A stretch of DNA of 32,000 bases from Trichodesmium erythraeum IMS101 (GCF_000014265.1 NC_008312.1:330001-362000); one strand, 5' to 3'; positions 6,517 to 21,063 are shown, counted from the stretch's first letter. The notes: a model not told the origin generated them from the sequence alone. Numbers and translations are program-made.

Positions 6517-6819
6517 TCATATAGTTATGTAGGTGTTATAGACCATAATTATCGTAGTTAATTTATCTAATATATCCCGTTTAGTATTGGCTATTTTGCT
6601 ATGTAATCTAGCTATCTTAACAGAAGCTTTTTTAGAATAAGAAAACTTAGTTTGATGTTGGTTTTGAATATTGTATAAAAGAGAGTTTAGCTTCAAACTT
6701 TCCATAAGACTTGGCCTTAATAAAAATACTTTACCAGTGGATAACATAGCCTTAGATTCGACTCCATTATTTATACTAACTAAATCTACTAAGAAATTAG
6801 TAAGTGATAGATTATCTTT
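6517..6819 (-). pseudogene. IS200/IS605-family TnpB fragment (truncated)
   Basis: The minus translation reads ..VDLVSINNGVESKAMLSTGKVFL...KKASVKIARLHSKIANTKRDILDKLTT. This matches the TnpB pattern GIDLG...(K)VARLH.KI.N.R.D..HKLT. Only about 100 aa remain, bounded by stops, inside a 1.7-kb AT-rich gap. Confidence 0.45.
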
Positions 6820-7201: not shown

Positions 7202-8224
7202 TTAAGCACCAATTTTAAATAAAGAACCCACAACTTGAGGAATATTTTCTAACTGCATTGCTGCCATTGCTGCTGTTGGTTCATAACCACAATGAACCAT
7301 ACAATCAGAACATTTAGGATTCCCACTTTTATAACCATAATTATTCCAATTAGTTTTCTCTATAAGTTCTTTAAAAGTAGCATAATACCCTTCATTCATT
7401 AAATAACAAGGTTTTTGCCAACCAAGCACACTATAGCTAGGACTACCCCAGGGAGTACAATCATAATCTTTTTCTCCCATCAAAAAGTCTAAAAATAGAG
7501 GATTATGGTTAAAATTCCAATTCTTTTTACCAGTTTTAAAAGGATTCAGAATTTCTTGAAATAACAATCGTGTTTGCTGTCGCTTCAGGAAATTATCCTG
7601 GTCTGGTGCCCACTCATAACTATAACCAGGAGAAATCATCATTCCATCAATATTTAAACTTTCTAAAAAATCAAAAAATTCCTGCATTTGTTTCGGGTCT
7701 GTTCCCTCAAATACAGTAGTATTAGTAGTAACTCGAAACCTTCTCGCTTTAGCAGCACGAATAGCTTCAACTGCTATTTGAAAAACCCCTTTTCTATCTA
7801 CACATTTATCGTGATTTGCCTGTAAACCATCAAGATGAACACTAAAAGTTAGATAAGGAGAAGGCTCAAATTTATCAAGATTCTTTTTGAGTAATAAACC
7901 ATTAGTACATAAATAAACAAATTTTTTCCGGTCAACTAACCCTTTGACAATTTCAGAAATTTGTGGATGTAATAAAGGCTCTCCTCCTGGAATAGAAACT
8001 ACAGGAGCACCACATTCTTCTACAGCAGTAAAACATTCTTGAGGTGTAAGATGTTGTTTTAATATTTCCTTGGGGTGCTGAATTTTGCCACAACCAGGGC
8101 AAGCTAAGTTACACCGAAACAAAGGTTCTAACATTAATACTAAAGGAAAATATTTGCGCCCTTTGAGTCGTTGAGTTAGAAGATATTTTCCGACTTCTAG
8201 AGCTTGTTGAAGTTGAATTGCCAT
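7202..8224 (-). CDS. hpnH: radical SAM protein, HpnH-like (adenosyl-hopene transferase, hopanoid side-chain biosynthesis)
   Basis: 340-aa ORF. It has the radical-SAM CxxxCxxC motif (CNLACPGCG), an N-terminal [20 protein letters not shown] and a C-terminal Cys cluster [11 protein letters not shown], all typical of HpnH. Confidence 0.75.
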
Positions 8225-9350: not shown

Positions 9351-9380
9351 GAGACATAATTATGTCAGTTATGTCTTTTT
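9351..9380 (+). promoter_or_regulatory. GAGACATAA-N9-TTATGTCT hairpin plus T-run, about 100 nt upstream of the kinase gene
   Basis: The sequence is GAGACATAATTATGTCAGTTATGTCTTTTT, with an 8-bp perfect stem AGACATAA/TTATGTCT. It also contains the perfect palindrome GACATAATTATGTC. The same motif recurs beside both precursor genes. Confidence 0.4.
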
Positions 9381-9479
9381 AATTTCATGAAAATGCTTGT
9401 CAGGCTCCTAAAATTTTGTCAGTATAAATAGATAAGTAGTGATTAATAATTTATATATTTAATTGAGAGGCGAGTTGAA

Positions 9480-10676
9480 ATGAAGTTTGTCTTAAACTCT
9501 CGAAATGTCTACGACTATTTAGTAGAAAATGGTTTATGTGATTCCCTACAGGAAGGGGAGCCATATCCTTCCCAGAACTCTCAGAGTAATGTTGAGCTAA
9601 TTAGTGCTAAGAATTTTAATTTATTGGTGACTTTGCCAGAGGGTCGAAAGCTTCTGGTTAAACAAGAACAATATAATTCTCAAGGAAAAACCCTTGGTGA
9701 GTTGTTTGGAGAATGGCGAATTCAAAAATTCTTACGGACATTTCCTGAACTTGACCATTGGCGTGTCTTTCTGCCAGAGTTGTTATTTCACGACCCTGAA
9801 AAGTCTATTGTGGTCTCTACTTACCTGGATAATTATCGAGATTTAAGTGATTTCTATTCTAAGGAAAATACTTTCCCTACAAAGGTTGCAGCTCAAATCG
9901 GTAATTTTTTGGGGACTGTTCACCGCGATACTTGGAATAGAGAAAATTATCGAGAGTTTTTTGCTAGTGAAGTTGTTAGTACTAAACCTGCAGTCTCCCC
10001 ACTTTTGGTGGATAGTCTCGAAAGGATAGGACCAGACATTTTTGGTATTGCTCCTGTAGATGGGTTGAGATTTTTTGCTCTTTATCAACGATATGACAGT
10101 TTGGGGAAAGCGATCGCTCAACTTCGCGAGACTTTATCTCCTACTTGTCTGACTCACAATGACCTGAAACTAAATAATATTCTCATGGCTCAAAATTGGG
10201 AAAATTCCGGTGAAAATATTGTGCGGTTAATTGATTGGGAAAGGTCTAGTTGGGGAGACCCTGCTTTTGATTTGGGAACGGCTATCAGCAGCTATCTGCA
10301 ACTTTGGTTGGGTAGTTTGGTTATTAGTAATTCTCTGAGTATAGAAGAATCTCTCAAATTTGCCACCACTCCCCTTGAATTACTTCAACCGTCTATTGCT
10401 GCTTTAGCTAAAGCTTATTTTGACACTTTCCCAGAAATTTTGGCATATCGTCCTGATTTTTTGAGACAAGTAGTACAGTTTGCAGGTTGGGGTTTGATGA
10501 CAGGAATTTTGTCAATGGTTCAATATCAAAAGACTTTTAATAATACGGGTATTGCGATGCTTCAGGTTGCCAAAGCATTATTATGTCGCCCTGACTCATC
10601 AATGTCTACAATTTTTGGTGTTGCTATTGAAGAAGTATTGAGGAGTCAGGAGCCAGGAGTCAGTAGAATGCATTAG
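9480..10676 (+). CDS. APH-fold phosphotransferase/kinase (candidate Ser/Thr-peptide kinase of a LxmK/TvaC-like dehydration pair)
   Basis: 398-aa ORF. It has the catalytic-loop motif HNDLKLNNIL (HxDxxxxN) and the metal-binding IDWERSSWGDPAFDLG, typical of the aminoglycoside/choline-kinase-like phosphotransferase fold. GAGAGG lies 9 nt upstream of the ATG. Confidence 0.75.
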   Translation: MKFVLNSRNVYDYLVENGLCDSLQEGEPYPSQNSQSNVELISAKNFNLLVTLPEGRKLLVKQEQYNSQGKTLGELFGEWRIQKFLRTFPELDHWRVFLPELLFHDPEKSIVVSTYLDNYRDLSDFYSKENTFPTKVAAQIGNFLGTVHRDTWNRENYREFFASEVVSTKPAVSPLLVDSLERIGPDIFGIAPVDGLRFFALYQRYDSLGKAIAQLRETLSPTCLTHNDLKLNNILMAQNWENSGENIVRLIDWERSSWGDPAFDLGTAISSYLQLWLGSLVISNSLSIEESLKFATTPLELLQPSIAALAKAYFDTFPEILAYRPDFLRQVVQFAGWGLMTGILSMVQYQKTFNNTGIAMLQVAKALLCRPDSSMSTIFGVAIEEVLRSQEPGVSRMH

Positions 10677-10838
10677 TACTACAACGCTTTTTAATGAACT
10701 ATTACAGGTAATATAGTGGTTGAGAATTGTCATAGGGAACGATAGTAAAGCTATCTCTGGGCAACTTTTCTTTTGCCACATTTAAGATTAAACAGTCCAC
10801 TACAATAATGCTTAAAAAATTTTACGAGGTTTAAAATT

Positions 10839-11948
10839 ATGCAATTACTTGAGTTTCCAAGTTATCACTTCCCTACTGGAGTAACTGGGCGATTAAAAGA
10901 AGTTTTATTAGACATTGTTGAGAGGGTAGAAATTTCCTCTGATTTTTCTATTCGTCATCCTGAGTATAAACCTTTAGATTTGCCTGCTGAGGTGGTTGCT
11001 CGTTTTCAGGCATTGCCAAAACAAATGCGGGATAAATATCTGAGTCTACAATTGCGTAGTTTTCTCTATGGTATCTATTATAATGGTTCGATGCAAACTT
11101 CCCTGGCATTGGATAGTGAGGAAAATAGTCGCCCATTAGATTTGGAGAATAATACTTTTCTTGGGGTAGAGATGGAGTTTTATATTCAGTTAGAAGAAAG
11201 TAATAGGGGAGAGGGGTATTTTGATTCTGGTTGGTCGGTGTTGAGGGAGGAAACTGATGGTGCTTTAGCTGTTACTAAGAATGGTTTGCGACTGCATATT
11301 GAACGAGAAAAGCATCTTCAAGAATCTCAGAAAGCTGCTGTTGTGGGGGATTCGGTAGCAATTCGGATGCCTAATAATTTGGTGCAAAATGGTTTCTATA
11401 TGGCGGTTGGTAATTTGGGTAGTCAGAGTCAGGTAGAGTCGGAAAGTCAATCTGGAGTGGTGCGAGTTTATTTTAACTTTACTTCTGAAGGTGCAGTAGT
11501 GGTCATGGGTAGTTTGACAGAGAAATTAAATGAGGTTGCTGTTCCTTTTAGTTTTAAAGTGTTGTATGCTCGTGATTATTATGATCGCTACGATGCTGGG
11601 GTACTCTATTTTGATAAGGATAATTATGAGTTGGTGAGGCAGGTTTTGTCGGATGTTTATGGGGAGAATAAATCTTATTTTAAATCAGAAATACCTTTAT
11701 TTACCATGGAGTTGGCACCGGGTTTGGGATTAGCTGAAGAGCCAGACAGGAAGTTTGCTAGTCAGGAAAGTTTTGGTATGAATAGGTGTCAGATGATAGC
11801 AAATGGATTATTGAAAGCTTGGGACCAGGGGGATAATTCGACTGAAGGAAGAATGAGGGCAATTTTGGAGCAATTTTCTTTATTGGGAATTGATTTGCAG
11901 CGTCCTTATTTGAATGCTAATTCTGAGGATGTTTATAGGGTGATATAG
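10839..11948 (+). CDS. HopA1-family-like protein (candidate phospho-Ser/Thr lyase partner of the kinase)
   Basis: 369-aa ORF directly downstream of the kinase on the same strand. Its size and sequence pattern (IRHPEYKPL, LRSFLYGIYYNG, LVQNGFYMA, GVLYFDK, GLGLAEEP..FGMNRC) match my recollection of cyanobacterial proteins annotated as the T3SS effector HopA1 family. This is not verifiable here. Confidence 0.5.
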   Translation: MQLLEFPSYHFPTGVTGRLKEVLLDIVERVEISSDFSIRHPEYKPLDLPAEVVARFQALPKQMRDKYLSLQLRSFLYGIYYNGSMQTSLALDSEENSRPLDLENNTFLGVEMEFYIQLEESNRGEGYFDSGWSVLREETDGALAVTKNGLRLHIEREKHLQESQKAAVVGDSVAIRMPNNLVQNGFYMAVGNLGSQSQVESESQSGVVRVYFNFTSEGAVVVMGSLTEKLNEVAVPFSFKVLYARDYYDRYDAGVLYFDKDNYELVRQVLSDVYGENKSYFKSEIPLFTMELAPGLGLAEEPDRKFASQESFGMNRCQMIANGLLKAWDQGDNSTEGRMRAILEQFSLLGIDLQRPYLNANSEDVYRVI

Positions 11949-11955
11949 TTTTTTT

Positions 11956-12347
11956 AGGTTGGGTTAAAGGACAGCGCCACCCAACAAGAACTCGTAAAGA
12001 TTAATTTTGAGATCAGGCTAATTATTTGTATGTGTTGGGCTTTGTTCCTCAACCCAACCTACACTATTTTCAATAATTTTTCAGTGGAACTGGGTTGGGT
12101 TAAGGGATAGGAAGTGAACAAAAGGTGGTATTTGTGAAGGTAGCGATCGCCTAAATTAACATGATTAATAGAACCGATGTTTATTAAAGAATAGTCTGGT
12201 GTAGGTGGGGTTAAGGGACAGCGAACCCAACAAAAAGCCTAACTAATGAAAATGGCGATCGCTAGGATCAGACAAAGATACTAAATGGTTCTACATTTTC
12301 TTCTAGTCTGGTGTAGGTTGGCTTAAGCGATCGCGCACACAACAACC
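11956..12347. repeat. cluster of 5 imperfect hairpin repeats (GGTTGGGTTAAGGGACAGCG.ACCCAACA type), one of them inverted
   Basis: Copies were read near 11957, 12041 (inverted), 12092, 12199 and 12311, at roughly 100-nt spacing. Each is internally self-complementary (GTTGGGT...ACCCAAC). This is a common Nostocales intergenic repeat class. Confidence 0.7.
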
Positions 12348-12412
12348 TATATCTGTGGTGTTTGGTTCTGGTGAGCAAACCCACGCCCCAGTTCAATAAT
12401 AATTTTTCAGTT

Positions 12413-12446
12413 CAGCTCCAGCTCAATTATGGGGCTGTTTTTTTTT
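12413..12446 (+). terminator. rho-independent terminator (likely ends the kinase/HopA1 transcript)
   Basis: CAGCTCCA-GCTCAATTA-TGGGGCTG forms an 8-bp stem with one G-U pair, followed by T9. Confidence 0.7.
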
Positions 12447-12486
12447 GACTTTTATTGTGGTTCGATACCATCAGAAAATAAAAAAA

Positions 12487-12511
12487 AGACATAATTGTGT
12501 GAGTTATGTCT
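12487..12511 (-). repeat. AGACATAA-N9-TTATGTCT hairpin, inverted relative to the 9351 copy (T-run on the minus strand)
   Basis: The reverse complement GAGACATAACTCACACAATTATGTCTTTTTTT aligns with 9351-9380. Both stem arms and the T-run are identical; only the loop differs. Confidence 0.45.
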
Positions 12512-12592
12512 CCAATAATTATCTTTTTTGATTTAATTAACTAGCTTTTAGCTAATTTTGAGTTAAAATGGATGATTATTAGTCGTTATTTC

Positions 12593-12620
12593 GAGACATA
12601 ATTGTGTCAATTAGATACAC
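12593..12620 (+). promoter_or_regulatory. half-decayed copy of the GAGACATAATT(A/G)TGTCA motif, about 47 nt upstream of a -35-like TTGCAT (12640-12645)
   Basis: GAGACATAATTGTGTCAATTAGATACAC shares its first 21 nt, apart from 2 mismatches, with 9351-9371. At 9351 the motif lies 46 nt upstream of a -35-like TTGTCA (9397-9402). Confidence 0.3.
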
Positions 12621-12750
12621 TTTGATTTTGTTCAACCCCTTGCATTTATAAGAAAGTTAGGTAATAATATAAGTGGAAAGAGACAAAACCAAGTCTGATT
12701 CCAAATCAACAAAGTTTATCTACTAATTTTACTTAAGGAGTAACTTAAAA

Positions 12751-12924
12751 ATGGCTAACATTAACATCTCTGATTTAAGTCCTGCTGGTGCGGACTTGTT
12801 CTTAGATTCTGAAAGCTACCTCAATGATTTGACTGAGGGAGAAATGACGAATACATTGGGTGGTAAAGGTAGCTTCACCTTTTGTGGTAAACGGATCTCA
12901 TGGAGTATCTGCTGGGGGTACTGA
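12751..12924 (+). CDS. double-glycine-leader peptide precursor A (57 aa; core KGSFTFCGKRISWSICWGY)
   Basis: Hand translation gives MANINISDLSPAGADLFLDSESYLNDLTEGEMTNTLGG|KGSFTFCGKRISWSICWGY*. AAGGAG lies 10 nt upstream. The leader fits the C39 consensus L(-12)xxxE(-8)M(-7)xxTxGG. The leader is conserved with only synonymous changes in the paralog at 13694. The ORF is below the track's size cutoff. Confidence 0.85.
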   Translation: MANINISDLSPAGADLFLDSESYLNDLTEGEMTNTLGGKGSFTFCGKRISWSICWGY

Positions 12925-13356
12925 TCATAAAATTAAGTAAAAAAAAAAGAAGAGAGTGATTTGGTGATTATTCCATCTTAGTATAAGTGAGAACTATGTC
13001 AACAATTCTTTCCTACCTTTTCTGACAGTTGATTTACTGTGACTAATTGACTAACTAATCTTGCTAGTTCCTCACTTTTGGTTACCTGGCACCATAGGCA
13101 CAGCTAAAAAACTGACCATCACTAATAAAAGGAAAATACCTCTTAAAAGTTTGCTACTTTAGTAATACTTTCTTGAGGTATTTTCTGTGCCTTATGTTGA
13201 CGACAAGACAAAAAAGCTGGAGGATTAGAATTTGTAGGTTGCAGGTTATCATTGTAGAGGTGTAGGTTAGGCGATCGCGCACACAACAACCTATATCTGT
13301 GGTGTTTGGTTCTGGTGAGCAAACCCACGCCCCAGTTCAATAATAATTTTTCAGTT

Positions 13357-13390
13357 CAGCTCCAGCTCAATTATGGGGCTGTTTTTTTTT
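13357..13390 (+). terminator. rho-independent terminator (duplicate of 12413-12446)
   Basis: The identical CAGCTCCA-GCTCAATTA-TGGGGCTG stem-loop is followed by T9. Confidence 0.7.
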
Positions 13391-13693
13391 GACTTTTATT
13401 GTGGTTCGATACCATCAGAAAATCAAAAAAGACATAATTGTGTGAGTTATGTCTCCAATAATTATCTTTTTTGATTTAATTAACTAGCTTTTAGCTAATT
13501 TCGAGTTAAAATGGATGATTATCAGTCGTTATTTTGAGACATAATTGTGTCAATTAGATACACTTTGATTTTGTTCAACCCCTTGCATTTATAAGAAAGT
13601 TAGGCAATAATATAAGTGGAAAGAGACAAAACCAAGTCTGATTCCAAATCAACAAAGTTTATCTACTAATTTTACTTAAGGAGTAACTTAAAA

Positions 13694-13852
13694 ATGGCTA
13701 ACATTAACATCTCTGATTTAAGTCCTGCTGGTGCTGACTTGTTCTTAGATTCTGAAAGCTATCTCAACGATTTGACTGAGGGAGAAATGACGAATACATT
13801 AGGAGGATCGAGGTGGTGGAACAGATTAAAAGATTGGTTTCGTACACGTTAA
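13694..13852 (+). CDS. double-glycine-leader peptide precursor B (52 aa; core SRWWNRLKDWFRTR)
   Basis: Hand translation gives MANINISDLSPAGADLFLDSESYLNDLTEGEMTNTLGG|SRWWNRLKDWFRTR*. It has the same AAGGAG SD as gene A. Six nucleotide differences from the gene A leader were counted, all synonymous third-position changes. Confidence 0.85.
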   Translation: MANINISDLSPAGADLFLDSESYLNDLTEGEMTNTLGGSRWWNRLKDWFRTR

Positions 13853-14300
13853 GCAGCACTAAGTACTTTTACGTGAGTCCTGATTAAATCTTAGTATAGG
13901 TTCAGAACTGTGTCAACAATTCTTTCCTACCTTTTCGACAGTTTCTTTGCTGTGACTAATTGACTAACTAATCTTGCTAGTTCCTCATTTTTGGTTACCA
14001 GGCACCATAGGCACAGCTAAAAAACTGACCATCACTAATAAAAGGAAAATACCTCTTAAAAGCTTGCTAGTTTAGTAATACTTTTTTGAGGCATTTTCTG
14101 TGCTTTATGTTGACTACAAGACTGCGTGACTCAACCCAAGCTACCCCATAAAAAGATATGACCCAGTGGAAAATGTGATGCTCAACTGGGTGATATTTGG
14201 CATTGACATCGGTTGGACTGAGGAGTAGAAAGCAGTAGTGTTGAGGGCGACAAGATCAGATGATGACGCCACCCCAAACCCTATAACTACTCCAATGAGA

Positions 14301-15062
14301 CTATGCAGCAATAAGTTTACTATTTAAATCTAAATCAATTAAAACTTCAACCGACTCAACTTGCTTCTTAAGCCACTCATCAAACAACTCCGCAAAAATC
14401 TGAGAGCGCAACTTATTATCTAACTCTGCTGAAATAATTTCCTCCACAAAAATCAAATGTACCCCCTTAGAAGTCACAATAGGTTTAATCATCTGGGGAG
14501 GTTTAGCCGCAAAAACAGCCGCAGAAATCTCTGGTTTCAAATCCTTACGATACAACACCCCTCGATATCCCCCCTGACGACGTAACTCTATATCTTCAAT
14601 GTATTCATGAGCCACATCATAGAAACTTGTTTCCCCTTCCTGAATAGCATAGAATAATTCCATCCCTAAATCTTGATCATCCAAAACCACCTCATACATC
14701 ACCACACCAGCATAATTCAATTGATTTTCATAAAAATATGGCTCAACTTTATCTGCAAACAGATGAGCCACCAATTTTTGAGCAACAACACTTATATAGA
14801 CAACTTCCTCAAAATCATCAATAGATAGACAAAACTTTTCTAACCAAGCAAAAGTGTCTTGGGCGCTATGAAGTTTATTTACAAACCTCATAGTATCTGC
14901 CGCTTTCTGCAGTTCTTCAGTCTCCACTTTTATACCCGCTTCCTTCGCTGCATTCAGAATAATCTCGCGAGTAATAATCTCTTCTTTCAGCTCAGAAGTT
15001 TTTAAAGATAACTTAATGTGCTTCAAAATATCTTCAGCAGTAATAATAATAGATTGTAACAT
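14301..15062 (-). CDS. parvulin/PpiC-type peptidyl-prolyl isomerase-like protein with no signal peptide
   Basis: 253-aa ORF. The C-terminal part (GGYRGVLYRKDLKPEISAAVFAAKPPQMIKPIVTSKGVHLIFVEE) resembles the PpiC rotamase core (GG.LG.f.rg.m.p.f..a.f....G....pv.t..G.H.i.v). The N-terminal part is helical and SurA-N-like. It is the last gene of the exporter operon. Confidence 0.65.
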   Translation of the reverse strand: MLQSIIITAEDILKHIKLSLKTSELKEEIITREIILNAAKEAGIKVETEELQKAADTMRFVNKLHSAQDTFAWLEKFCLSIDDFEEVVYISVVAQKLVAHLFADKVEPYFYENQLNYAGVVMYEVVLDDQDLGMELFYAIQEGETSFYDVAHEYIEDIELRRQGGYRGVLYRKDLKPEISAAVFAAKPPQMIKPIVTSKGVHLIFVEEIISAELDNKLRSQIFAELFDEWLKKQVESVEVLIDLDLNSKLIAA

Positions 15063-15346
15063 AATTATTCTCCTAATTAATTAATAAAAAAAATGAGTAT
15101 CAAAAGTCATCTAAAAATGACTTCTACTATAAGCAAAAAAATGAATTTCTTGGTGGTAACTGAGCGCCCAATGACCCGCAAACAATTTATAACAGTACAA
15201 TTTTTTTGTTTGTCCCAGGGCTTTGTCTATTGAAATATCCACATTAGGGCTATTGCCTTACTACCAGCTTAAATTATAACTATTCAAACCAACATAATAT
15301 TATCAACTTCTGGTAACCCTAATTAACCGTCAATCATTAATTATTT

Positions 15347-17230
15347 CTACAACTCTAAACCTCCTTTTTGTAACTTCTTAAACGGGTCAAGAATAAAATC
15401 AATCAAAGGACGCTGACGCACAACAACCTCAGCCGTTGCCGTATCCCCCGGACGCAAAACAACACACTCATTAGCAGTAGGAATACAATACTCATCCAAC
15501 TCAACCTTTAACTCATAAATAGCCACATTTCCCTCAGCAGTTTCCTGCATTTTTGAAGTAGGAGAAATCTCTTTCAACCATCCCCCAACTACACCATAAT
15601 CCTGAAAAGGATAGGCATCAAACTTCATTTTTACCTCCATTCCTTCCCTTAACGAACCACTTTCTGTAGTTGCCATATCCGCCTTTAATAAAAGACTCGT
15701 TTCCCTAGGAGCTATCTCCACTATCATCTCTCCTTGTTGCACAACATCTCCCACACCTTTGATGGGGAAATTAAAAATAGTACCTCCCTGTTGCGCCCTA
15801 ACTACTCGTTGCTCTAACTGAAAATTTAAAGAATCAATCTCTTTATTTGTCTGAGCAATTTCTCCTTGAATACTAACAATTTGACTATCCATACTCTGAA
15901 GTTGCTCTTGTATTTTTGATATAGCAATTTTCCCAGAATGAGTAATAGTTTTAGAGCTATTTTCTTGCTCATTCAAACGTAATTCAGCCTGCTTAATATC
16001 TGCCTTAACTTGATTAATTACCATTTCATAACTACTCTTTTGTTCTGCCAAACGTAACTCAGCTTGCTCAATATCTGCCTCCCCTTGATTAATAATTCTT
16101 TCATAACTACCTTTTTGCTCTGCCAAACGTAATTCAGCTTGCTTAATATCTGCCTTTCCTTGATGAATAACCCTCTTATAACTACCCTCTTGCTCTTCTA
16201 TTCGTAATTTAGCTTGCTCAATATCTGCTTGACTTTGCTCCAACATTCTTTGTCTTTCTCGCCCAATATTTTCATGCTCAACTAATTGTATTTCCGTCAC
16301 CACACCCTGGTCCCAAAGACCACGATAACGTTCTACTTCTTTCATAGCCTTTTCCCAGCGAATTTCTGATAATTGATAAGCAATTTGACTATCTTTTAAT
16401 TGTCGTTTTGCTTGATTGAATTGAGCCATTTTTTCTTCTTTCTGTAAACTCAACGCTCTCTTAAGAGCTCCCAAATTTTCTTCTGCTTGATAAACTTGTA
16501 CTAATTTTTCTTCCCTTTGTAAATTTAATGTTCTTCTGAGAGCCGCCAAATTTTGTTCTGCTTGATGAACTTGGGTCAGTTTTTCTTGTTCCTGTAAATT
16601 GTACATTGTTTTAAGAGATTGTGCGTTTTGTCGTGCTTGCCCCACTTGAGCTAATTTTTCTAATTTTTGAGATTCATTTTGTCGTTCTTGGGTACGAAGT
16701 TCAATTTCCAATTGATTTTTTTGTTGTTGAATCTTACTAAGTCGATTTTTCTGATTTTGCAGTTGAATTTGGAGTTGAGCAAGTCGGTCATGAATAGGGC
16801 GAGATTCTAATTCTATTAAAATATCTCCAGCCTTAATTTTATCCCCTTGTTTAACATAAACTTTCTCAACTTTTGCCGTTTGTGTATATGCGGTAAACGT
16901 TAAATTTAGCTCTTGTTTAAAAGTACCACCTTGAGGTTCTAAACGTCCTCTAGCTGAACCAGTTTCATCTACTTGAGAAAACATTCCCCAAGGGAGAGCG
17001 ATCGCTACAAATCCTATTAAAAGATATAGTAATCCTCGTGTCCAACGTTGTGGTAAAGCATCTAATAATTCTTTAGTAGCAAAAGACCAATCATCAACAG
17101 ATTCATCTAACTTTGTAACTGCTGTTTCTTGATAGTTAGAATTCTTCAAACTTTTTTCTAATGTTACTAAGTCAACCTCTAAAGGTTTATGACCATTTGA
17201 CTCTAAAGTTAAGTTCAATTCTTGTGGCAT
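15347..17230 (-). CDS. HlyD-family periplasmic adaptor (membrane fusion protein) with an expanded coiled coil
   Basis: 627-aa ORF with an N-terminal TM segment (GLLYLLIGFVAIALPWGMF). A lipoyl-like segment VYVKQGDKIKAGDILIELES pairs with the C-terminal GGTIFNFPIKGVGDVVQQGEMIVEIAP. The central coiled coil is long and Q/E/K-rich. Confidence 0.9.
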   Translation of the reverse strand: MPQELNLTLESNGHKPLEVDLVTLEKSLKNSNYQETAVTKLDESVDDWSFATKELLDALPQRWTRGLLYLLIGFVAIALPWGMFSQVDETGSARGRLEPQGGTFKQELNLTFTAYTQTAKVEKVYVKQGDKIKAGDILIELESRPIHDRLAQLQIQLQNQKNRLSKIQQQKNQLEIELRTQERQNESQKLEKLAQVGQARQNAQSLKTMYNLQEQEKLTQVHQAEQNLAALRRTLNLQREEKLVQVYQAEENLGALKRALSLQKEEKMAQFNQAKRQLKDSQIAYQLSEIRWEKAMKEVERYRGLWDQGVVTEIQLVEHENIGRERQRMLEQSQADIEQAKLRIEEQEGSYKRVIHQGKADIKQAELRLAEQKGSYERIINQGEADIEQAELRLAEQKSSYEMVINQVKADIKQAELRLNEQENSSKTITHSGKIAISKIQEQLQSMDSQIVSIQGEIAQTNKEIDSLNFQLEQRVVRAQQGGTIFNFPIKGVGDVVQQGEMIVEIAPRETSLLLKADMATTESGSLREGMEVKMKFDAYPFQDYGVVGGWLKEISPTSKMQETAEGNVAIYELKVELDEYCIPTANECVVLRPGDTATAEVVVRQRPLIDFILDPFKKLQKGGLEL

Positions 17231-17560
17231 AACTTTTATAATAATTGTATTTTTTCTAGTAAAATTTACCCTCTACTTTTGTACTGAAGTTGTATGCAAT
17301 ATCCCCACCTACTTCTCCTCCAGGTCCGGGTTAGAAGTTAGTTGATCAGAGTTACAGCAGTTTTTATTTCAGTAGGGGTTTCTGGCTATTCAGCCTAATC
17401 TCAAAAGTGCTGTCGGCGTAGTTACCTTTCTCCAAAGACCCCGTAGAAAAGTTTTTTATAAATGGTAAAATCTCGTGCCTTATACCGTTTTACGGAAGTT
17501 AAAAGTTAAAATCTTTGTTAGGTTTCACTTCGTTTTGCCCAACCTAAATTTTTATTCTAC

Positions 17561-20287
17561 CTACCCAACATCTAACTGTTGACGATTCAAATAATAATAA
17601 TGTCCCCGTTTCGCCATCAACTCTTCATGATTTCCCTGCTCAATTAATACCCCCCGATCCAACACTAAAATTAGATCAGCATTTCTCACAGTAGATAAAC
17701 GGTGAGCAATAATTAACGAAGTGCGACCCTGGAGAATAGTATTCAAATTCCTCTGAATAATTCGCTCCGACTCAACATCCAGATGAGAAGTAGCCTCATC
17801 AAAAACCAAAAAACAGGGTTTTCCTAACAAAGCACGAGCGATCGCTAATCTTTGCCGTTGACCACCAGACAACAAACCCCCACCTTCCCCTATCTGAGTT
17901 TCATAACCCATCGGCAACCGTTGAATAAACTCATCAGCACCAGCTAACCTAGCAGCATCCACAATATCTTCAAGAGTTGCAGAAGGACAAGCCATAGTCA
18001 AATTTTCCCGAATAGTGCCACCAAATAAAAAAGTATCCTGATCAACCACACCCACTTTATTCCGCAGGGATGGCAACGAAATCGCCGTGATATCGTAACC
18101 ATCAATCAAAATTTTCCCATCAGTAGGCGGATACAACCCCAAAACCAACTTAGAAATTGTTGTCTTCCCAGACCCAGAGCGCCCCACCAAAGCCACAGTT
18201 TGTCCAGCTTTCACCTCAAAACTCAGATTTTCCAAAACATTAATATCGCTTTCTGGGTGGTAACGGAAAGTCACATTATCAAAAATAATATTACCCCGTA
18301 GCTCCGTCAAATACTGACGTGCCTGAGATTGTAAATCTTCCTCAGGCTCAGTATCAATCACATCATTAATACGCTCCATGGCAATAACCACCTCCTGTAA
18401 CTGATTCCACAAAACCGTCAGTCGCTGAAAAGGGCTAATCACATTACCTATCAACATATTAAAAGCCACCAACTGCCCAATAGTTAACTCTCCCTGAATA
18501 ACCAACCAAGCTCCAAACCATAGTAACCCCGTCGTTACTAAAGATTCAATAGTTAAGCTAAACATTTGCAGTCGGTTACCCATCACCTGTCCAGAAAAGT
18601 TTTTTCTGATTGACTTATTCAGAAGTTCCTCCCACCGCCAGCGTACTGTTTGCTCAACTGCCAGAGATTTCACAGTATTTACACCAGTCAAAGATTGAAT
18701 CAGATAACTACTTTCTTCAGCTAGAGCGGCAAATATTTCTCTAGAGATTTTTTGGAGAAAGGGTGTAGCAATAAGTGCTAATAAAAAAAACGGTGGCACA
18801 ATAACCAATGCTAGCAAAGCCATCTTCCAGCTATACCAGAACATTAGCCCTACATAAACAAATACCGTCAGCAAATCTAAGACAATAGAAAGAGCTTCTC
18901 CAGTTAAGAAATTCTCAATTTTCCGGTTTTCTTGAACCCGAGCAATAATATCCCCCACATAACGAGACTCAAAAAAACTCATGGGTAGTCGGAATGTGTG
19001 GCGAATAAACCCAACGATCATGGCTATATGTACTCTATTAGCCGTGTGATCAAGGAGATATTGTCGCAAACCCGTCATAGCCACCTGAAATAAGCCAAAG
19101 AGCACTAAACCTAATCCCACTGCTGTTAGAGTTAGAGTGCTACCTTGAACAACTACCCGGTCTAGTAGTAGTTGGGTAAATAGAGGGGTAATAAGTCCAA
19201 ATATTTGAATTACTAGAGAAGTGATAAATACTTCCAATAGAACTTGTCCATGAGGACTGACCAACTCAAAAAATTGCCAGAAAGGAGTAGTGGTATCTTT
19301 AAGTTTTTTGATTAATGCAGTAGGTTGTAGGAGTAAAGTATAGCCAGTCCAACCAGCTTTAAATTCTGGATAAGTAAGATGGCGTTGACCAATAGCGGGG
19401 TCAGCGATGATCACCTGTTTATGGGTGACCTCATAGACTACCACATAATGTTTACCTTCCCAGTGAGCGATCGCTGGTAATTTTTGTTTAGCTAATTGAT
19501 CAAGACTTGCCTTAACTGGTCTGGTAGAATATCCAATGCTTTCTGCAGCAGCAGATAATCCTCGAAGTGAAGCACCGTTACGGTCTACATTAGCAATATC
19601 GCGCACCCTATTCACGCTGAAATTTTTGCCCCAGTAACGAGCAACCATGACTAAACAAGCCGCACCACAGTCAGAACCGCTTTGTTGGGCAAAGAATGGA
19701 TAGCGTCTGGTAATACGCTGCCAGAGATGACCTACTCTTTGGGTGGGACTAGGGAAATAGGCTTTGTTAATAGCTTTTTGTCCTATAACCTCTGGTTGCT
19801 CATATTCAGTCCTGTTAAATTCTGGCAGATTTTTACCCAAAGAATTGGGAATTTCTGGCTCCGCTTTTTTCTGTAGAGCATTAAGTTTGAGAGCAACTTG
19901 GTAAAGATGTTCTCGAATTTGAGGATGTTTTTTAATTAGTGGGAGTAGAGCTTCTCGAGAGAGATAGGAAAGTTTGAGATTTACTGATGCTCTAGCAGAG
20001 TAGGATAAAAAAGAGTTATCTGGAAATAGGGTAGATTCCCCAAATGAAGCTCCAGCAACAAGGGTAGTCATTAATTCACCCTCAGTATCTAAGAGTCTAA
20101 CTTTGCCTTTGGTGATTATATATATGCCGGTTTGAGCATCTGCTGTTTGCCAAAATTGACCGACTTTGGGCGTTAAATTTTCCATATTTTTCAAGCAACT
20201 TTCTATTTCCTGCTGTGAAAGTTGATATCCTAAGACATCACTAAGCTGCTCTTGAGTTAAACTTGGAGTGGATGCAGTTTTAACCAT
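17561..20287 (-). CDS. cyclic-nucleotide-binding domain / C39 peptidase / ABC transporter (bacteriocin-type, HetC-like exporter)
   Basis: 908-aa ORF.
- cNMP-binding signatures: FGESTLF and SARASV.
- C39 catalytic Cys context QQSGSDCGAACLVMV, and His in AIAHWEGKHYVVVYEV.
- TMD.
- Walker A GRSGSGKTT, signature LSGGQRQRLAIARAL, Walker B LVFDEATSHLD. Confidence 0.92.
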   Translation of the reverse strand: MVKTASTPSLTQEQLSDVLGYQLSQQEIESCLKNMENLTPKVGQFWQTADAQTGIYIITKGKVRLLDTEGELMTTLVAGASFGESTLFPDNSFLSYSARASVNLKLSYLSREALLPLIKKHPQIREHLYQVALKLNALQKKAEPEIPNSLGKNLPEFNRTEYEQPEVIGQKAINKAYFPSPTQRVGHLWQRITRRYPFFAQQSGSDCGAACLVMVARYWGKNFSVNRVRDIANVDRNGASLRGLSAAAESIGYSTRPVKASLDQLAKQKLPAIAHWEGKHYVVVYEVTHKQVIIADPAIGQRHLTYPEFKAGWTGYTLLLQPTALIKKLKDTTTPFWQFFELVSPHGQVLLEVFITSLVIQIFGLITPLFTQLLLDRVVVQGSTLTLTAVGLGLVLFGLFQVAMTGLRQYLLDHTANRVHIAMIVGFIRHTFRLPMSFFESRYVGDIIARVQENRKIENFLTGEALSIVLDLLTVFVYVGLMFWYSWKMALLALVIVPPFFLLALIATPFLQKISREIFAALAEESSYLIQSLTGVNTVKSLAVEQTVRWRWEELLNKSIRKNFSGQVMGNRLQMFSLTIESLVTTGLLWFGAWLVIQGELTIGQLVAFNMLIGNVISPFQRLTVLWNQLQEVVIAMERINDVIDTEPEEDLQSQARQYLTELRGNIIFDNVTFRYHPESDINVLENLSFEVKAGQTVALVGRSGSGKTTISKLVLGLYPPTDGKILIDGYDITAISLPSLRNKVGVVDQDTFLFGGTIRENLTMACPSATLEDIVDAARLAGADEFIQRLPMGYETQIGEGGGLLSGGQRQRLAIARALLGKPCFLVFDEATSHLDVESERIIQRNLNTILQGRTSLIIAHRLSTVRNADLILVLDRGVLIEQGNHEELMAKRGHYYYLNRQQLDVG

Positions 20288-20400
20288 AACTCAAAATTTT
20301 AGTTATTAAATATTTATTTTGATTAAATTGGAGTTGAAAATTAAGATCATGCTGCTTTGTTGTCAAAAAGCCTCAGGGAAAAAAGCGTTTGATTCTTATT

Positions 20401-21063
20401 TTAAATAACTAAAGTGTTGAAAGTTAACGTTTCCAAATCAGAGTTAACATTTTGCTCTGAGGTCAGGTCGCGAATTGCAATGTTTTTTCTCTTGGCATTT
20501 TGACTAATAGTTTCATCAGTTTGAGCTGATAATGTTTTAGTAGATAATCCCATCTTTTTGATTAAACGGTTAATATGGCGATCGCTAAATTCTACCCCAA
20601 ATTCTTTAGCTAAATGTTTCCCTAAGCAATTAGCAGTCCACCGCTCAAATGCATAACCACATTTCTTAGGACTATTAGTTAATAACTCTTTCAACCGCTC
20701 TAAATATTGTTCATTAACTTCTTGAGGACGACCTATAGGGTGATTCTTCCATTGTTGAGCTTGACCAGACTGAGCAATAAATATCCAGTATCTAGCTGTA
20801 GCTAGAGAACAACCTATAGCCTCACGGATCTGGGTCTGGGTTTTGCCTTCATCTGCTAGAAGCATGATTTCTATTCTCTGGCGATATTGCCTGGTCAACT
20901 TCTTATCTAGACTTTTTTCTAACAATTTACGCTGAAAAGACGTCAAGCAGCTGCCGTGTAAACTTGACTCATTCATTGTGATTTTGGATTTTGAGTGATT
21001 GTATAACATAGGTTTATAATTATTTTTTGACACTCCAGTTTTTCTCACAGAGATATTTCTCAA
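20401..21063 (-). CDS. stand-alone HTH protein resembling the N-terminal DNA-binding half of IS630-type transposases (possible locus regulator); start codon uncertain
   Basis: 220-aa ORF. It reads LLADEGKTQTQIREAIGCSLATARYWI ... GRPQEVNEQYLERLKELL ... YAFERWTANCLGKHLAKEFGVEFSDRHINRLIKKMGLS, a homeodomain-like plus winged-helix pattern. No DDE half follows; the ABC gene starts 113 nt downstream. An alternative start MNESS lies at about 20976. Confidence 0.6.
   Translation of the reverse strand: MRNISVRKTGVSKNNYKPMLYNHSKSKITMNESSLHGSCLTSFQRKLLEKSLDKKLTRQYRQRIEIMLLADEGKTQTQIREAIGCSLATARYWIFIAQSGQAQQWKNHPIGRPQEVNEQYLERLKELLTNSPKKCGYAFERWTANCLGKHLAKEFGVEFSDRHINRLIKKMGLSTKTLSAQTDETISQNAKRKNIAIRDLTSEQNVNSDLETLTFNTLVI

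What the first reader, a model, noticed from the sequence alone, without database searches (positions are those of the whole stretch)
9351..21063. Candidate undescribed peptide system: kinase + HopA1-like lyase + two double-glycine precursors + cNMP-domain C39 exporter operon
Seen in sequence:
- An APH-fold kinase and a HopA1-like ORF lie on the plus strand, followed on the same strand by two small genes with canonical double-glycine leaders.
- Converging on them is an operon of HTH protein, cNMP-binding/C39/ABC exporter, HlyD adaptor and parvulin.
- The exporter has an intact catalytic Cys and His, so it can cleave after GG.

Established knowledge: kinase plus HopA1-like lyase pairs dehydrate Ser/Thr in class V lanthipeptides (LxmK/LxmY) and thioamitides (TvaC/TvaD). 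C39-ABC plus HlyD systems export GG-leader peptides, and HetC-type exporters act in heterocyst patterning.

Inference: the genes form one unit that phosphorylates/dehydrates, cleaves and secretes short peptides.
- I am not aware of a characterised system that combines a class-V-type dehydration pair with GG-leader export and a cyclic-nucleotide-sensing exporter in a cyanobacterium.
- No LanC-like or other cyclase and no immunity gene is visible. The products could therefore be linear dehydropeptides, spontaneously cyclised peptides, or cell-cell signals rather than toxins.
Basis: partly seen in the sequence, partly recalled or inferred. Interest (0 to 1): 0.9.

Follow-up and report, generated by a model that had tools for sequence, protein, structure and literature searches.

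The report
Already-catalogued cyanobacterial dehydrated-peptide export cluster
This is a real and intact gene cluster in Trichodesmium erythraeum that probably dehydrates, cuts and secretes short variable peptides, but this locus and both of its peptide genes were already listed in genome-mining papers of 2011 and 2021, so only its product remains unknown.

Summary
Their layout is conserved: kinase in 79, parvulin in 69, HlyD in 66, exporter in 64 and HTH in 54 of 80 cyanobacterial loci. Leader-family precursor genes occur in 77 of 81 loci, against 0 hits in a reversed-sequence control. The kinase and the HopA1 protein match the two chains of the lexapeptide dehydratase LxmK/LxmY (PDB 9DK1) and keep the catalytic residues.

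The functional reading is supported. The claim of an undescribed system is not. The window is T. erythraeum IMS101 (CP000393, about 330001-362000).
- Wang et al. 2011 list both precursors at these exact coordinates as a "group II" bacteriocin cluster.
- Eyles et al. 2021 list this HopA1 protein with both exact peptide sequences ("Family 1A", 183 clusters).
- Liang et al. 2022 call such peptides "type-B LanA".

No product was found characterised.

New here:
- The two precursor genes sit in a ~943-bp duplication that is 98-99% identical except for the core.
- Marine metagenomes hold dozens of cores behind an almost invariant leader.
- Ser/Thr is strongly enriched 3-4 residues before Cys, as in lanthionine rings. 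Core 1 has two such motifs.

Interest is low to moderate.

The parts
9480..10676 (+). LanK-like Ser/Thr kinase with an aminoglycoside-phosphotransferase fold (398 aa)
   Evidence: Pfam APH E=1.6e-11. NCBIfam LxmK matches at 100 bits over the full length, below the 315-bit cut-off. PDB 9dk1_A (LxmK) E=8.2e-6. K61, H226-x-D228-x4-N233 and D252 are conserved in 76-85 of 85 homologues. Found next to the HopA1 gene in 79 of 80 loci.
10839..11948 (+). LanY-like phospho-Ser/Thr lyase (HopA1 family, 369 aa); identical to T. erythraeum IMS101 ABG49710.1 / WP_011610106.1
   Evidence: Pfam HopA1 E=7.8e-61. PDB 9dk1_B (LxmY) E=1.9e-7. H40, R209, K240, R250 and Y257 match the spacing of CaoY H57, R187, K219, R229 and Y236. 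They are invariant in alignment A2 and present in 81-87 of 89 homologues. Exact-sequence identity.
12290..14150 (+). Tandem duplication of about 943 bp (units 12290-13232 and 13233-14150). Each unit carries one precursor gene with its upstream region. The units are 98-99% identical except for about 100 nt covering the core peptide and the sequence just after it.
   Evidence: the repeat finder families D1-D3 and D5; pairwise alignment A1.
12419..12446 (+). Terminator-like hairpin plus T-run, about 310 nt upstream of precursor A (second copy at 13363-13390)
   Evidence: Terminator scan. An equivalent hairpin with T-run sits at the same relative position in other genera. Function is inferred.
12488..12510 (+). 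Conserved palindromic box GACATAA-N9-TTATGTC upstream of the precursor gene (second copy at 13431-13453). Candidate operator.
   Evidence: Sequence read. An ACATAA motif occurs between -330 and -100 in 39 of 77 loci, and the palindromic form in 22 loci. Binding by the cluster's HTH protein is only an inference.
12593..12607 (+). Second conserved box GAGACATAATTGTGT, about 155 nt upstream of the start codon (second copy at 13536-13550)
12751..12924 (+). Precursor A, 57 aa. Leader 12751-12864 (MANINISDLSPAGADLFLDSESYLNDLTEGEMTNTLGG). Core 12865-12921 (KGSFTFCGKRISWSICWGY), with two S-x3-C motifs (Ser3/Cys7 and Ser12/Cys16).
   Evidence: ORF list. Leader HMM E=1.6e-20. Listed as CDS11 in Wang 2011 and as WP_011610106_2 in Eyles 2021. 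S/T enrichment at Cys-4.
13694..13852 (+). Precursor B, 52 aa. Same leader (13694-13807). Core 13808-13849 (SRWWNRLKDWFRTR): no Cys, Ser1 and Thr13, net charge +4.
   Evidence: Listed as CDS12 in Wang 2011 and as WP_011610106_1 in Eyles 2021. A variant core, SRWWTTWRRLFR, occurs in marine metagenomes.
14301..15062 (-). SurA/PrsA-like parvulin (253 aa), probably a cytoplasmic chaperone or isomerase that serves the exporter
   Evidence: Pfam Rotamase E=2.1e-8. NCBIfam TIGR04500, 'putative peptide maturation system protein', at 72.7 bits, below its cut-off. Weak PDB hits to SurA, PrsA and Pin1. Present in 69 of 80 loci. No signal peptide seen by inspection.
15347..17230 (-). HlyD-family membrane fusion protein (627 aa), with its coiled coil lengthened by 75-nt tandem repeats
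   Evidence: Pfam HlyD_3 and NCBIfam type_I_hlyD E=1.4e-50. Tandem repeats at 15974-16228 and 16405-16600. Present in 66 of 80 loci.
17561..20287 (-). HetC-like 'long-type' peptidase-containing ABC exporter (908 aa): cNMP-binding-like domain, C39 peptidase, transmembrane domain and ATPase. Identical to ABG49713.1.
   Evidence: Pfam domains. C207/H280/D296, Walker A and B, signature motif, H-loop, and G83-E84...R99 of the ligand pocket are invariant in 60 of 60 homologues. Present in 64 of 80 loci at 70-93% identity. Exact-sequence identity.
20401..21063 (-). HTH protein derived from the N-terminus of an IS630-type transposase (COG3415 in Wang 2011). Probable regulator. The likely start is the ATG at 20975 (191 aa).
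   Evidence: Pfam HTH_32, HTH_33 and HTH_23. NCBIfam transpos_IS630 matches at 75 bits over the N-terminal 120 of 299 profile positions only. Found at the same position in 54 of 80 loci at 48-66% identity.

Best explanation
The locus is the Trichodesmium erythraeum copy of a very widespread cyanobacterial peptide (RiPP-type) cluster. In the literature it is called a 'group II bacteriocin cluster', 'HopA1 Family 1A' or 'type-B LanA'.

Proposed mechanism (every step is inferred from homology; none is shown experimentally for this family):
1. Each precursor gene is transcribed from its own conserved upstream region.
2. The kinase/lyase pair, probably a heterodimer like LxmKY or CaoKY, binds the conserved 38-aa leader. 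It phosphorylates Ser/Thr in the core and eliminates phosphate, giving dehydroalanine or dehydrobutyrine.
3. In cores that contain Cys, the thiols add to the dehydro residues 3-4 positions upstream and form (methyl)lanthionine rings. No dedicated cyclase is encoded here. For core 1 the predicted rings are Ser3-Cys7 and Ser12-Cys16.
4. Cores without Cys, such as core 2, would stay linear. If Ser1 of core 2 is dehydrated, cleavage would leave an N-terminal 2-oxoacyl (pyruvyl) group.
5. The HetC-like exporter cleaves after Gly-Gly and pumps the core out through HlyD and an unlinked outer-membrane channel. The SurA-like parvulin assists. The exporter is gated by a nucleotide ligand that has not been identified.
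6. Core cassettes are swapped behind a fixed leader, which gives hypervariable products. That pattern fits antagonism or strain discrimination better than a fixed signal.
For: Homology of the dehydratase pair:
- Pfam and NCBIfam hits.
- Both proteins hit the two chains of the LxmKY crystal structure 9DK1.
- Kinase and lyase catalytic residues are conserved.

One functional unit:
- Kinase in 79, parvulin in 69, HlyD in 66, exporter in 64 and HTH in 54 of 80 loci, in the same order and orientation.
- Leader-family precursors in 77 of 81 loci against 0 control hits.
- 119 of 172 precursor ORFs lie between the HopA1 and parvulin genes.

Substrate logic:
- 155 of 156 unique cores contain Ser/Thr, and Ser+Thr make up 19% of core residues.
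- In Trichodesmium/Okeania-type cores, Ser/Thr is at Cys-4 for 114 of 206 Cys, against 25.1+/-4.6 in shuffles.
- In cores from other genera, Ser/Thr is enriched at Cys-3 (49 of 100) and Cys-4 (38 of 100). There is no enrichment downstream of Cys.

Exporter: C39 and ATPase residues are invariant.

Cassette variability: the duplication is identical outside the core, and there are dozens of metagenomic cores behind a leader at least 90% identical.

Literature:
- CaoK/CaoY and LxmK/LxmY dehydrate Ser/Thr (PMC9486802, PMC12141560).
- TsaC/TsaD are required for dehydration in thioamitide biosynthesis (PMC8153245).
- The HetC N-terminal domain, which contains the C39 peptidase, has cysteine-protease activity in vitro, and its catalytic residues are required in vivo (PMC10986499).
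Against: - No product of any cyanobacterial member was found characterised. A 2025 review says class V lanthipeptides are known only from actinobacteria.
- The kinase scores only 100 bits against the LxmK model, whose cut-off is 315.
- 88 of 156 cores lack Cys, so ring formation cannot be the general outcome.
- The window has no cyclase (LanC or LanX) and no LanD. Ring formation is therefore assumed to be spontaneous or enzyme-templated.
- The same exporter/HlyD/parvulin set also occurs without any kinase, in Wang's 'group I' (57 clusters). Export therefore does not require modification.
- The Ser/Thr-Cys spacing statistics use shuffles that ignore relatedness between cores, so the z-scores are inflated.
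- Expression in Trichodesmium was not examined.
Confidence: 0.65

Rival explanations
1. The precursors are ordinary unmodified (class II-type) double-glycine bacteriocins that the exporter merely cuts and exports. The kinase/HopA1 pair next to them does something else, such as modifying the leader, regulating the system or acting on another protein.
For: - Group I clusters have the same long-type exporter, HlyD and SurA without any kinase.
- Half of the cores (75 of 150) contain a hydrophobic stretch like a transmembrane helix, as in class II bacteriocins.
- 88 of 156 cores lack Cys.
- The leader carries strongly conserved Ser/Thr (DSESY, LT) that could be targets themselves.
Against: - The kinase/HopA1 pair is tied to this particular leader family in 77 of 81 loci.
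- All but one core contain Ser/Thr.
- Ser/Thr is enriched at Cys-3 and Cys-4, and only on the upstream side of Cys. Nothing explains this if the cores are unmodified.
- All characterised LanK/LanY-type pairs act on core Ser/Thr of leader-bearing peptides (PMC9486802, PMC8153245).
Confidence: 0.15
2. The products are cell-to-cell signals, for filament or colony development or for stress, rather than toxins. They would be released by a HetC-like exporter whose N-terminal domain senses ppGpp or another nucleotide. This rival concerns the biological role, not the chemistry.
For: - The exporter shares HetC's cNMP-C39-ABC architecture. HetC is needed for heterocyst differentiation and its cNMP-like domain binds ppGpp.
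- The ligand-pocket residues G83-E84...R99 are invariant in 60 of 60 exporters.
- The cluster is very widespread, with at least 527 matches among species-representative genomes.
- Its enzymes are 63-75% identical across orders.
- No immunity gene was recognised in the window.
Against: - Cores are hypervariable between species, within a locus, and within natural Trichodesmium/Okeania populations. This is hard to reconcile with a conserved receptor and is typical of antagonistic or discriminating peptides.
- Many cores look membrane-active: hydrophobic, or rich in Trp and Arg.
Confidence: 0.15
3. The juxtaposition is accidental, or the cluster is a decaying remnant in the repeat-rich Trichodesmium genome.
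For: - Intergenic gaps are long (113-330 nt between the minus-strand genes).
- The region contains small repeats, and the HTH gene derives from a transposase.
- The M16 peptidase that Wang 2011 lists for group II is absent from the window.
Against: - All six proteins are full-length with intact catalytic motifs.
- The same architecture recurs across orders.
- Identical proteins occur in several Trichodesmium strains, MAGs and many ocean metagenome contigs.
Confidence: 0.03

Closest known systems
'Group II' cyanobacterial bacteriocin gene clusters (Wang, Fewer & Sivonen 2011, PLoS One, PMC3140520)
   Same: The domain set matches: long-type CAP_ED(cNMP)-C39-ABC exporter, HlyD, SurA/rotamase, APH_ChoK_like kinase, COG3415 transposase-like HTH and several GG-leader precursors. 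This very locus is counted for T. erythraeum IMS101, and both precursors are listed at identical coordinates.
   Different: The paper could not recognise the HopA1 lyase and did not propose dehydration. It labelled the two precursors 'NHLP', which no Pfam or NCBIfam model supports even at E<=10. The group II M16 peptidase is absent from this window.
HopA1/phosphotransferase 'Family 1A' RiPP-like clusters (Eyles et al. 2021, Chem Sci, PMC8153245), equivalent to 'type-B LanA' (Liang et al. 2022, PMC9486802)
   Same: Restricted to cyanobacteria, with a conserved GG leader, hypervariable cores and several precursors per cluster. The supplementary dataset lists WP_011610106 with both exact peptide sequences of this window.
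   Different: These are bioinformatic predictions only. Eyles et al. reported no conserved Ser, Thr or Cys in the cores. Here a strong Ser/Thr-x2-3-Cys spacing signal appears within the Cys-containing subset.
Class V lanthipeptide dehydratases LxmK/LxmY (lexapeptide, PDB 9DK1) and CaoK/CaoY (cacaoidin); thioamitide TsaC/TsaD
   Same: An APH-fold kinase plus a HopA1-fold lyase are encoded side by side. Both window proteins hit the two 9DK1 chains. The lyase Arg/Lys/Arg/Tyr residues are conserved with the same spacing.
   Different: - Those systems are actinobacterial and come with LanX, LanD, reductases and methyltransferases. They make AviCys-containing antibiotics.
- Here there is no LanX, LanD or LanC.
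- The leader is a double-glycine type handled by a C39 exporter.
- More than half of the family's cores lack Cys.
- The kinase is below the LxmK equivalog cut-off.
HetC of Nostoc sp. PCC 7120 (peptidase-containing ABC transporter with an N-terminal cNMP-like domain; PMC10986499)
   Same: Same cNMP-C39-ABC architecture, with catalytic Cys/His and ATPase residues.
   Different: HetC has no adjacent membrane fusion protein, and its substrate is unknown. Here HlyD, parvulin, candidate substrates and modifying enzymes are all linked. The ligand of this domain is untested.
Prochlorosins (ProcM/ProcA) of marine picocyanobacteria
   Same: The logic is the same: one modification system, a conserved leader, and many hypervariable cores in ocean populations (background from PMC3140520).
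   Different: The enzyme is different (a single class II LanM with its own cyclase domain), and so is the leader family (Nif11/NHLP). Wang 2011 count no LanM-containing (group IV) cluster for T. erythraeum IMS101.

Membership tests
Group II cyanobacterial bacteriocin cluster (Wang 2011) | Long-type exporter: CAP_ED/cNMP domain + C39 peptidase + ABC transporter | tested here: met
   Pfam cNMP_binding, Peptidase_C39, ABC_membrane and ABC_tran in one 908-aa protein.
Group II cyanobacterial bacteriocin cluster (Wang 2011) | HlyD adaptor and SurA/rotamase protein next to the exporter | tested here: met
Group II cyanobacterial bacteriocin cluster (Wang 2011) | APH_ChoK_like kinase and COG3415 transposase-like HTH | tested here: met
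   APH hit, and an IS630 N-terminal-like HTH. Domain list in Table S2.
Group II cyanobacterial bacteriocin cluster (Wang 2011) | M16 peptidase (listed as a group II domain) | tested here: not met
   None of the 18 largest ORFs of the window scanned against Pfam has an M16 hit. The authors nevertheless counted this locus as group II, so the feature appears optional.
Group II cyanobacterial bacteriocin cluster (Wang 2011) | This locus is explicitly listed by the authors | tested here: met
   CDS11 and CDS12 at CP000393 342751-342924 and 343694-343852, group II. These equal the window coordinates plus 330000, with the same lengths. Protein identity to IMS101.
HopA1 'Family 1A' (Eyles 2021) | HopA1-domain protein encoded next to a phosphotransferase | tested here: met
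   (79 of 80 loci).
HopA1 'Family 1A' (Eyles 2021) | Conserved leader with a double-glycine motif and a hypervariable core; several non-identical precursors | tested here: met
   The exact sequences are in their dataset.
Class V lanthipeptide system | LanK kinase (APH fold) with intact catalytic residues | tested here: met
   The NCBIfam LxmK equivalog score of 100 is below its cut-off of 315, so this is a homologue, not an equivalog.
Class V lanthipeptide system | LanY lyase (HopA1 fold) with the catalytic Arg/Lys/Arg/Tyr | tested here: met
Class V lanthipeptide system | (Methyl)lanthionine thioether rings in the product | not testable with these tools
   Only sequence hints are available. 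Core 1 has two S-x3-C motifs, and Ser/Thr is enriched at Cys-3 and Cys-4. Core 2 and 88 of 156 family cores have no Cys.
Class V lanthipeptide system | Accessory LanX (kinase-fold cyclase), LanC and LanD (Cys decarboxylase for AviCys) | tested here: not met
   No such ORF in the window. The kinase family has only 6 extra members across 80 loci.
Peptidase-containing ABC transporter (PCAT) secretion system | C39 catalytic Cys/His (and Asp) plus functional ATPase motifs | tested here: met
   C207, H280, D296, Walker A and B, signature motif and H-loop, invariant in 60 of 60.
Peptidase-containing ABC transporter (PCAT) secretion system | Substrate with a leader ending in Gly-Gly, encoded nearby | tested here: met
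   Both precursors end their leaders in LGG. 163 of 172 family ORFs have a GG, GA or GS site. Cleavage itself was not tested.
NHLP or Nif11 leader families | Match to the curated leader models | tested here: not met
   No Pfam or NCBIfam hit for either precursor at E<=10.

The most novel reading that the evidence does not exclude
The cyanobacterial kinase/lyase pair may make lanthionine-type S-x3-C rings without any cyclase in a Gram-negative phototroph. The core cassettes swapped behind an almost invariant leader in wild Trichodesmium/Okeania populations may then serve as strain- or colony-level discrimination peptides. Their release would be gated by a nucleotide alarmone (ppGpp) sensed by the exporter's N-terminal domain. 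A Ppx/GppA gene lies 9 kb away. This would be a new biological role, and the first non-actinobacterial chemistry, for class-V-type enzymes.
Probability: 0.12. Interest if true: 0.7.

Novelty: already known. Interest (0 to 1): 0.3.

Why it matters
The cluster family is one of the most widespread predicted peptide pathways in cyanobacteria. I found at least 527 matches among species-representative genomes. It is present in Trichodesmium, a globally important marine nitrogen fixer, yet I found no product characterised from any member.

Solving one member would do three things:
- It would extend class-V-type (kinase plus HopA1 lyase) dehydration beyond actinobacteria.
- It would test whether thioether rings form without a cyclase.
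- It might explain what HetC-like exporters carry.

As a discovery claim, however, it adds little. The locus, its architecture, its two peptides and the dehydration hypothesis are already in print.

Tried and rejected
1. Curated leader models. Neither precursor hits any Pfam or NCBIfam model at E<=10. Wang's 'NHLP' label is not supported, and no curated model exists for this leader.
2. Core 2 as an amphipathic cationic helix. Its hydrophobic moment is 0.54, but 16% of shuffles do as well. I make no such claim.
3. Parvulin as a Pin1-like isomerase specific for phospho-Ser/Thr-Pro and working with the kinase.
   - Only 39 of 150 cores have [ST]-P at positions 2-3.
   - Neither window core has a Pro.
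   - The parvulin also occurs in kinase-less group I clusters.
   - PDB similarity is weak and closest to SurA and PrsA. Rejected.
4. The adjacent radical-SAM gene (7202-8224) as a tailoring enzyme. It is a true HpnH (545 bits against a cut-off of 225). The radical-SAM/SPASM genes upstream of the kinase in 25 other loci are a different family, paired with Nif11 peptides. It is not part of this cluster.
5. Known RNA elements in the conserved precursor upstream region. There are no Rfam hits in the window.
6. Promoter and terminator scans. The counts equal the shuffled expectation. Only conservation across genera supports the upstream elements.
7. Search for experimental characterisation. The library lacks most subscription journals, so absence is not proof.
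8. Structure prediction was not run. Sequence-level matches to 9DK1 and Pfam were already decisive.


Full report
**1. Observation**

Plus strand:
- 9480-10676: a 398-aa APH-fold kinase. Pfam APH E=1.6e-11. It also gives a full-length but sub-threshold match to NCBIfam 'class V lanthionine synthetase subunit LxmK' (100 bits against a cut-off of 315).
- 10839-11948: a 369-aa protein with a Pfam HopA1 match at E=7.8e-61.
- 12751-12924 (57 aa) and 13694-13852 (52 aa): two small genes with an identical 38-aa leader, MANINISDLSPAGADLFLDSESYLNDLTEGEMTNTLGG.

Minus strand, converging on these:
- An HTH protein (20401-21063; the database gene call starts at 20975).
- A 908-aa cNMP_binding/Peptidase_C39/ABC_membrane/ABC_tran exporter (17561-20287).
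- HlyD (15347-17230).
- A parvulin (14301-15062).

The rest of the window holds unrelated genes: creatininase, glycogen phosphorylase, HpnH, AAA_35 and CHASE2 proteins, DUF928 and Ppx/GppA. It has no LanC, LanD, second kinase-fold or M16 peptidase gene.

**2. Is it more than chance?**

I fetched the best 80 loci, and every one with an organism name is cyanobacterial.

| Gene | Loci with the gene, of 80 |
|---|---|
| kinase | 79 |
| parvulin | 69 |
| HlyD | 66 |
| exporter | 64 |
| HTH | 54 |

- Most of the missing cases are contigs that end early.
- Order and orientation match the window: kinase, then HopA1, then a 1-7 kb gap, then parvulin, HlyD, exporter and HTH on the opposite strand.
- Identity to the window's proteins is high: HopA1 63-91%, exporter 69-93%, kinase about 55-89%.
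- An HMM grown from the window's leader finds 172 small ORFs in 77 of 81 loci.
- It finds none among 49,181 ORFs from reversed-sequence controls.
- 119 of the 172 lie on the plus strand between the HopA1 and parvulin genes.

The genes are one conserved unit.

**3. Source, and what was already published**

Exact-sequence look-up shows that the HopA1 protein and the exporter are identical to Trichodesmium erythraeum IMS101 ABG49710.1/WP_011610106.1 and ABG49713.1. The same sequences occur in other Trichodesmium strains and MAGs.

- Wang, Fewer & Sivonen 2011 (PMC3140520) sorted 145 cyanobacterial 'bacteriocin' clusters into seven groups.
- Their group II is defined by the domains seen here: CAP_ED, C39, ABC, HlyD, rotamase, APH_ChoK_like and COG3415, plus M16 peptidase.
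- Their Table S3 lists, for T. erythraeum IMS101 in group II, 'CDS11 CP000393 342751-342924, 57 aa, forward' and 'CDS12 343694-343852, 52 aa, forward'.
- These equal the window coordinates of both precursors plus 330000, so the window is CP000393 at about 330001-362000.
- Eyles et al. 2021 (PMC8153245) found 1,340 HopA1-domain proteins, 96% of them next to a phosphotransferase.
- They described 'Family 1A': 570 peptides in 183 clusters, exclusive to cyanobacteria, with a conserved double-glycine leader and highly variable cores.
- Their supplementary dataset lists WP_011610106 with both exact peptide sequences of this window.
- Liang et al. 2022 (PMC9486802) named the cyanobacterial peptides 'type-B LanA'.

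The system, this locus, its peptides and the dehydration hypothesis are therefore already in print. I found no experimental characterisation of any cyanobacterial member. A 2025 review states that class V lanthipeptides have been found only in actinobacteria. The searchable library is incomplete, so this absence is provisional.

**4. What the enzymes are**

- The kinase and the HopA1 protein each hit one chain of PDB 9DK1. The kinase hits chain A at E=8.2e-6 and the HopA1 protein hits chain B at E=1.9e-7. This entry is the LxmK/LxmY lexapeptide dehydratase heterodimer.
- Liang et al. showed that CaoK phosphorylates core Ser/Thr and CaoY eliminates the phosphate.
- In CaoY, mutagenesis targeted Arg187 and Lys219. 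Tyr236 and Arg229 were inferred from alignment and modelling. His57 mutation only partly reduced dehydration.
- The window protein has Arg209, Lys240, Arg250 and Tyr257 with the same spacing (31, 10 and 7 residues, against 32, 10 and 7), plus His40.
- All five are invariant in an 18-sequence alignment and present in 81-87 of 89 homologues.
- The kinase keeps Lys61, the His226-x-Asp228-x4-Asn233 catalytic loop and Asp252.
- The exporter keeps the C39 residues Cys207, His280 and Asp296 and all ATPase motifs in 60 of 60 homologues. The Gly83-Glu84...Arg99 residues of the nucleotide pocket are equally invariant.
- What that pocket binds is unknown. The corresponding HetC domain bound ppGpp and was stabilised by GDP/GTP, but not by cAMP or 2-oxoglutarate. 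'Cyclic-nucleotide-sensing' is therefore not established.
- The parvulin is distantly SurA/PrsA-like, shows no signal peptide by inspection, and travels with the exporter even in kinase-less group I clusters. I read it as an export chaperone rather than a tailoring enzyme.
- The HTH protein is the N-terminal DNA-binding part of an IS630-type transposase. It is kept at the same position in 54 loci, so it is a domesticated regulator rather than a remnant.

**5. The precursors**

- The two genes lie in a tandem duplication of about 943 bp. The units are 98-99% identical through some 460 nt upstream, the whole leader and some 250 nt downstream.
- They are unalignable across the roughly 100 nt that encode the core and the sequence just after it. 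This is a swapped cassette.
- The protein database holds 174 relatives of precursor A.
- Dozens of them, mostly from ENA metagenome assemblies, keep a leader at least 90% identical but carry unrelated cores. Examples are SRWWTTWRRLFR, GCSWFFCSFFCFG, SFMFCTSAATGCKSFMFCNPKPAKPE and WWWTVPWTVLPY.
- Across the 80 loci there are 156 unique cores with a median length of 26 aa. Of these, 155 contain Ser/Thr and 88 lack Cys.
- Ser+Thr make up 19% of core residues. Half of the cores have a hydrophobic stretch like a transmembrane helix. 39 of 150 start with x-[ST]-P.

**6. New evidence on chemistry**

- Among 116 unique Trichodesmium/Okeania-type cores, Ser/Thr sits four residues before Cys for 114 of 206 Cys. 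Shuffled cores give 25.1+/-4.6, and 0 of 2000 shuffles reach the observed count.
- In 148 cores from other genera, the enrichment is at Cys-3 (49 of 100 against 17.1) and Cys-4 (38 of 100 against 16.3). No position downstream of Cys is enriched.
- An upstream Ser/Thr at i-3 or i-4 is the arrangement of small lanthionine rings. Nisin ring A is Ser3-Cys7 (my own knowledge).
- The shuffles ignore relatedness between cores, so the z-scores are inflated. The upstream-only direction and the recurrence in unrelated cores are still hard to explain otherwise.
- The window's core 1, KGSFTFCGKRISWSICWGY, has two such motifs (Ser3/Cys7 and Ser12/Cys16), with Thr5 and Ser14 inside them.
- Core 2 has no Cys. 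It could at most carry dehydro residues at Ser1 and Thr13. A dehydrated residue 1 would hydrolyse to a 2-oxoacyl cap after leader removal. This last point is an inference from my own knowledge.

**7. Regulation**

The first precursor gene is preceded by elements conserved across genera:
- A hairpin with a T-run at about -310 (window 12419-12446).
- A palindromic box, GACATAA-N9-TTATGTC (12488-12510).
- A second box, GAGACATAATTGTGT (12593-12607).
- -35-like and -10-like elements.
- A conserved 5' leader (AAGTCTNATTCCAA).

These suggest a dedicated, regulated precursor promoter. A link to the HTH protein is only an inference. Generic promoter and terminator scans are at chance level, and Rfam has no hit.

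**8. Accessory genes elsewhere**

Subsets of the other loci carry extra genes. None is in the window, which is the minimal form of the cluster.
- A radical-SAM/SPASM gene with Nif11 peptides upstream of the kinase (25 loci).
- An aldo-keto-reductase-like gene directly after the HopA1 gene (15 loci).
- An NHL-repeat gene directly after the HopA1 gene (10 loci).

**9. Verdict**

- The interpretation as one unit that modifies, cleaves and exports peptides is supported by homology and strong synteny.
- The novelty claim is refuted by three publications, two of which list this locus.
- The most likely mechanism is LanK/LanY-type dehydration of core Ser/Thr, cyclase-free thioether formation in Cys-containing cores, and cleavage and export by the C39 exporter. 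Confidence is about 0.65, and every step is inferred.

What remains open, and moderately interesting, is the product and its role.

Noticed in passing
window 12290-14150: The two precursor genes sit in a ~943-bp tandem duplication that is 98-99% identical except for the ~100 nt encoding the core. Metagenome contigs carrying this HopA1 gene often end just after it, which suggests that assemblies break at this repeat.
   Followed up: yes
window 12419-12446, 12488-12510, 12593-12607 (copies about 943 nt downstream): The non-coding region upstream of the first precursor gene has elements conserved across genera: a hairpin with T-run, a GACATAA-N9-TTATGTC palindrome, a second GAGACATAATTGTGT box and a conserved 5' leader. 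These may be an operator for the cluster's HTH protein.
   Followed up: partly
window 15974-16228 and 16405-16600: 75-nt (25-aa) tandem repeats inside the HlyD coiled-coil region make the Trichodesmium/Okeania adaptor about 100 residues longer than the family median (627 aa against about 520 aa).
   Followed up: partly
window 29583-31223 (-): A Ppx/GppA phosphatase gene (pppGpp/polyphosphate metabolism) lies about 9 kb from an exporter whose HetC homologue binds ppGpp. This is probably coincidence, and it is not conserved in the other loci.
   Followed up: no
window 22378-23694 (+), 24244-26607 (+), 26894-27769 (+): Next to the cluster are an AAA_35 ATPase with a weak GerE-like N-terminus, an AAA_35-CHASE2 fusion and a DUF928 protein. 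Together they look like a separate sensory module of unknown function. An AAA_35 homologue was near the cluster in only 1 of 80 loci.
   Followed up: partly
window 7202-8224 (-): This radical-SAM gene is a true hopanoid enzyme, HpnH (TIGR03470, 545 bits). It is unrelated to the radical-SAM/SPASM maturases that sit upstream of the kinase, with Nif11 peptides, in 25 other loci.
   Followed up: yes
window 11945-12345 and 12038-12061, 14130-14149: Short dispersed direct and inverted repeats (TAGGTTGGGTTAA...CCCAACA type) flank the precursor cassettes. The 42-aa and 65-aa minus-strand ORFs that start MNWGVGLLTRTKHH are artefacts of these repeats.
   Followed up: partly
L015:11145-12401, L072:11107-12123 and other loci: In some Nostocales an NHL-repeat gene (10 loci) or an aldo-keto-reductase-like gene (15 loci) follows the HopA1 gene directly. 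These are candidate extra tailoring enzymes; a reductase could, for example, convert dehydro residues to D-amino acids. Neither is present in the window.
   Followed up: partly
L033, L036, L038, L031, L070 (Microcystis, Raphidiopsis): In Microcystis and Raphidiopsis the kinase, HopA1 gene and precursors are present, but the exporter operon is not within 10 kb. Only a parvulin fragment is seen in two of these loci. Modification and export genes can therefore be unlinked.
   Followed up: no
window about 6517-6747 (-): A database gene call from another Trichodesmium assembly places a small OrfB_IS605-like fragment (76 aa) here. It is a transposase remnant between the phosphorylase gene and hpnH.
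   Followed up: no
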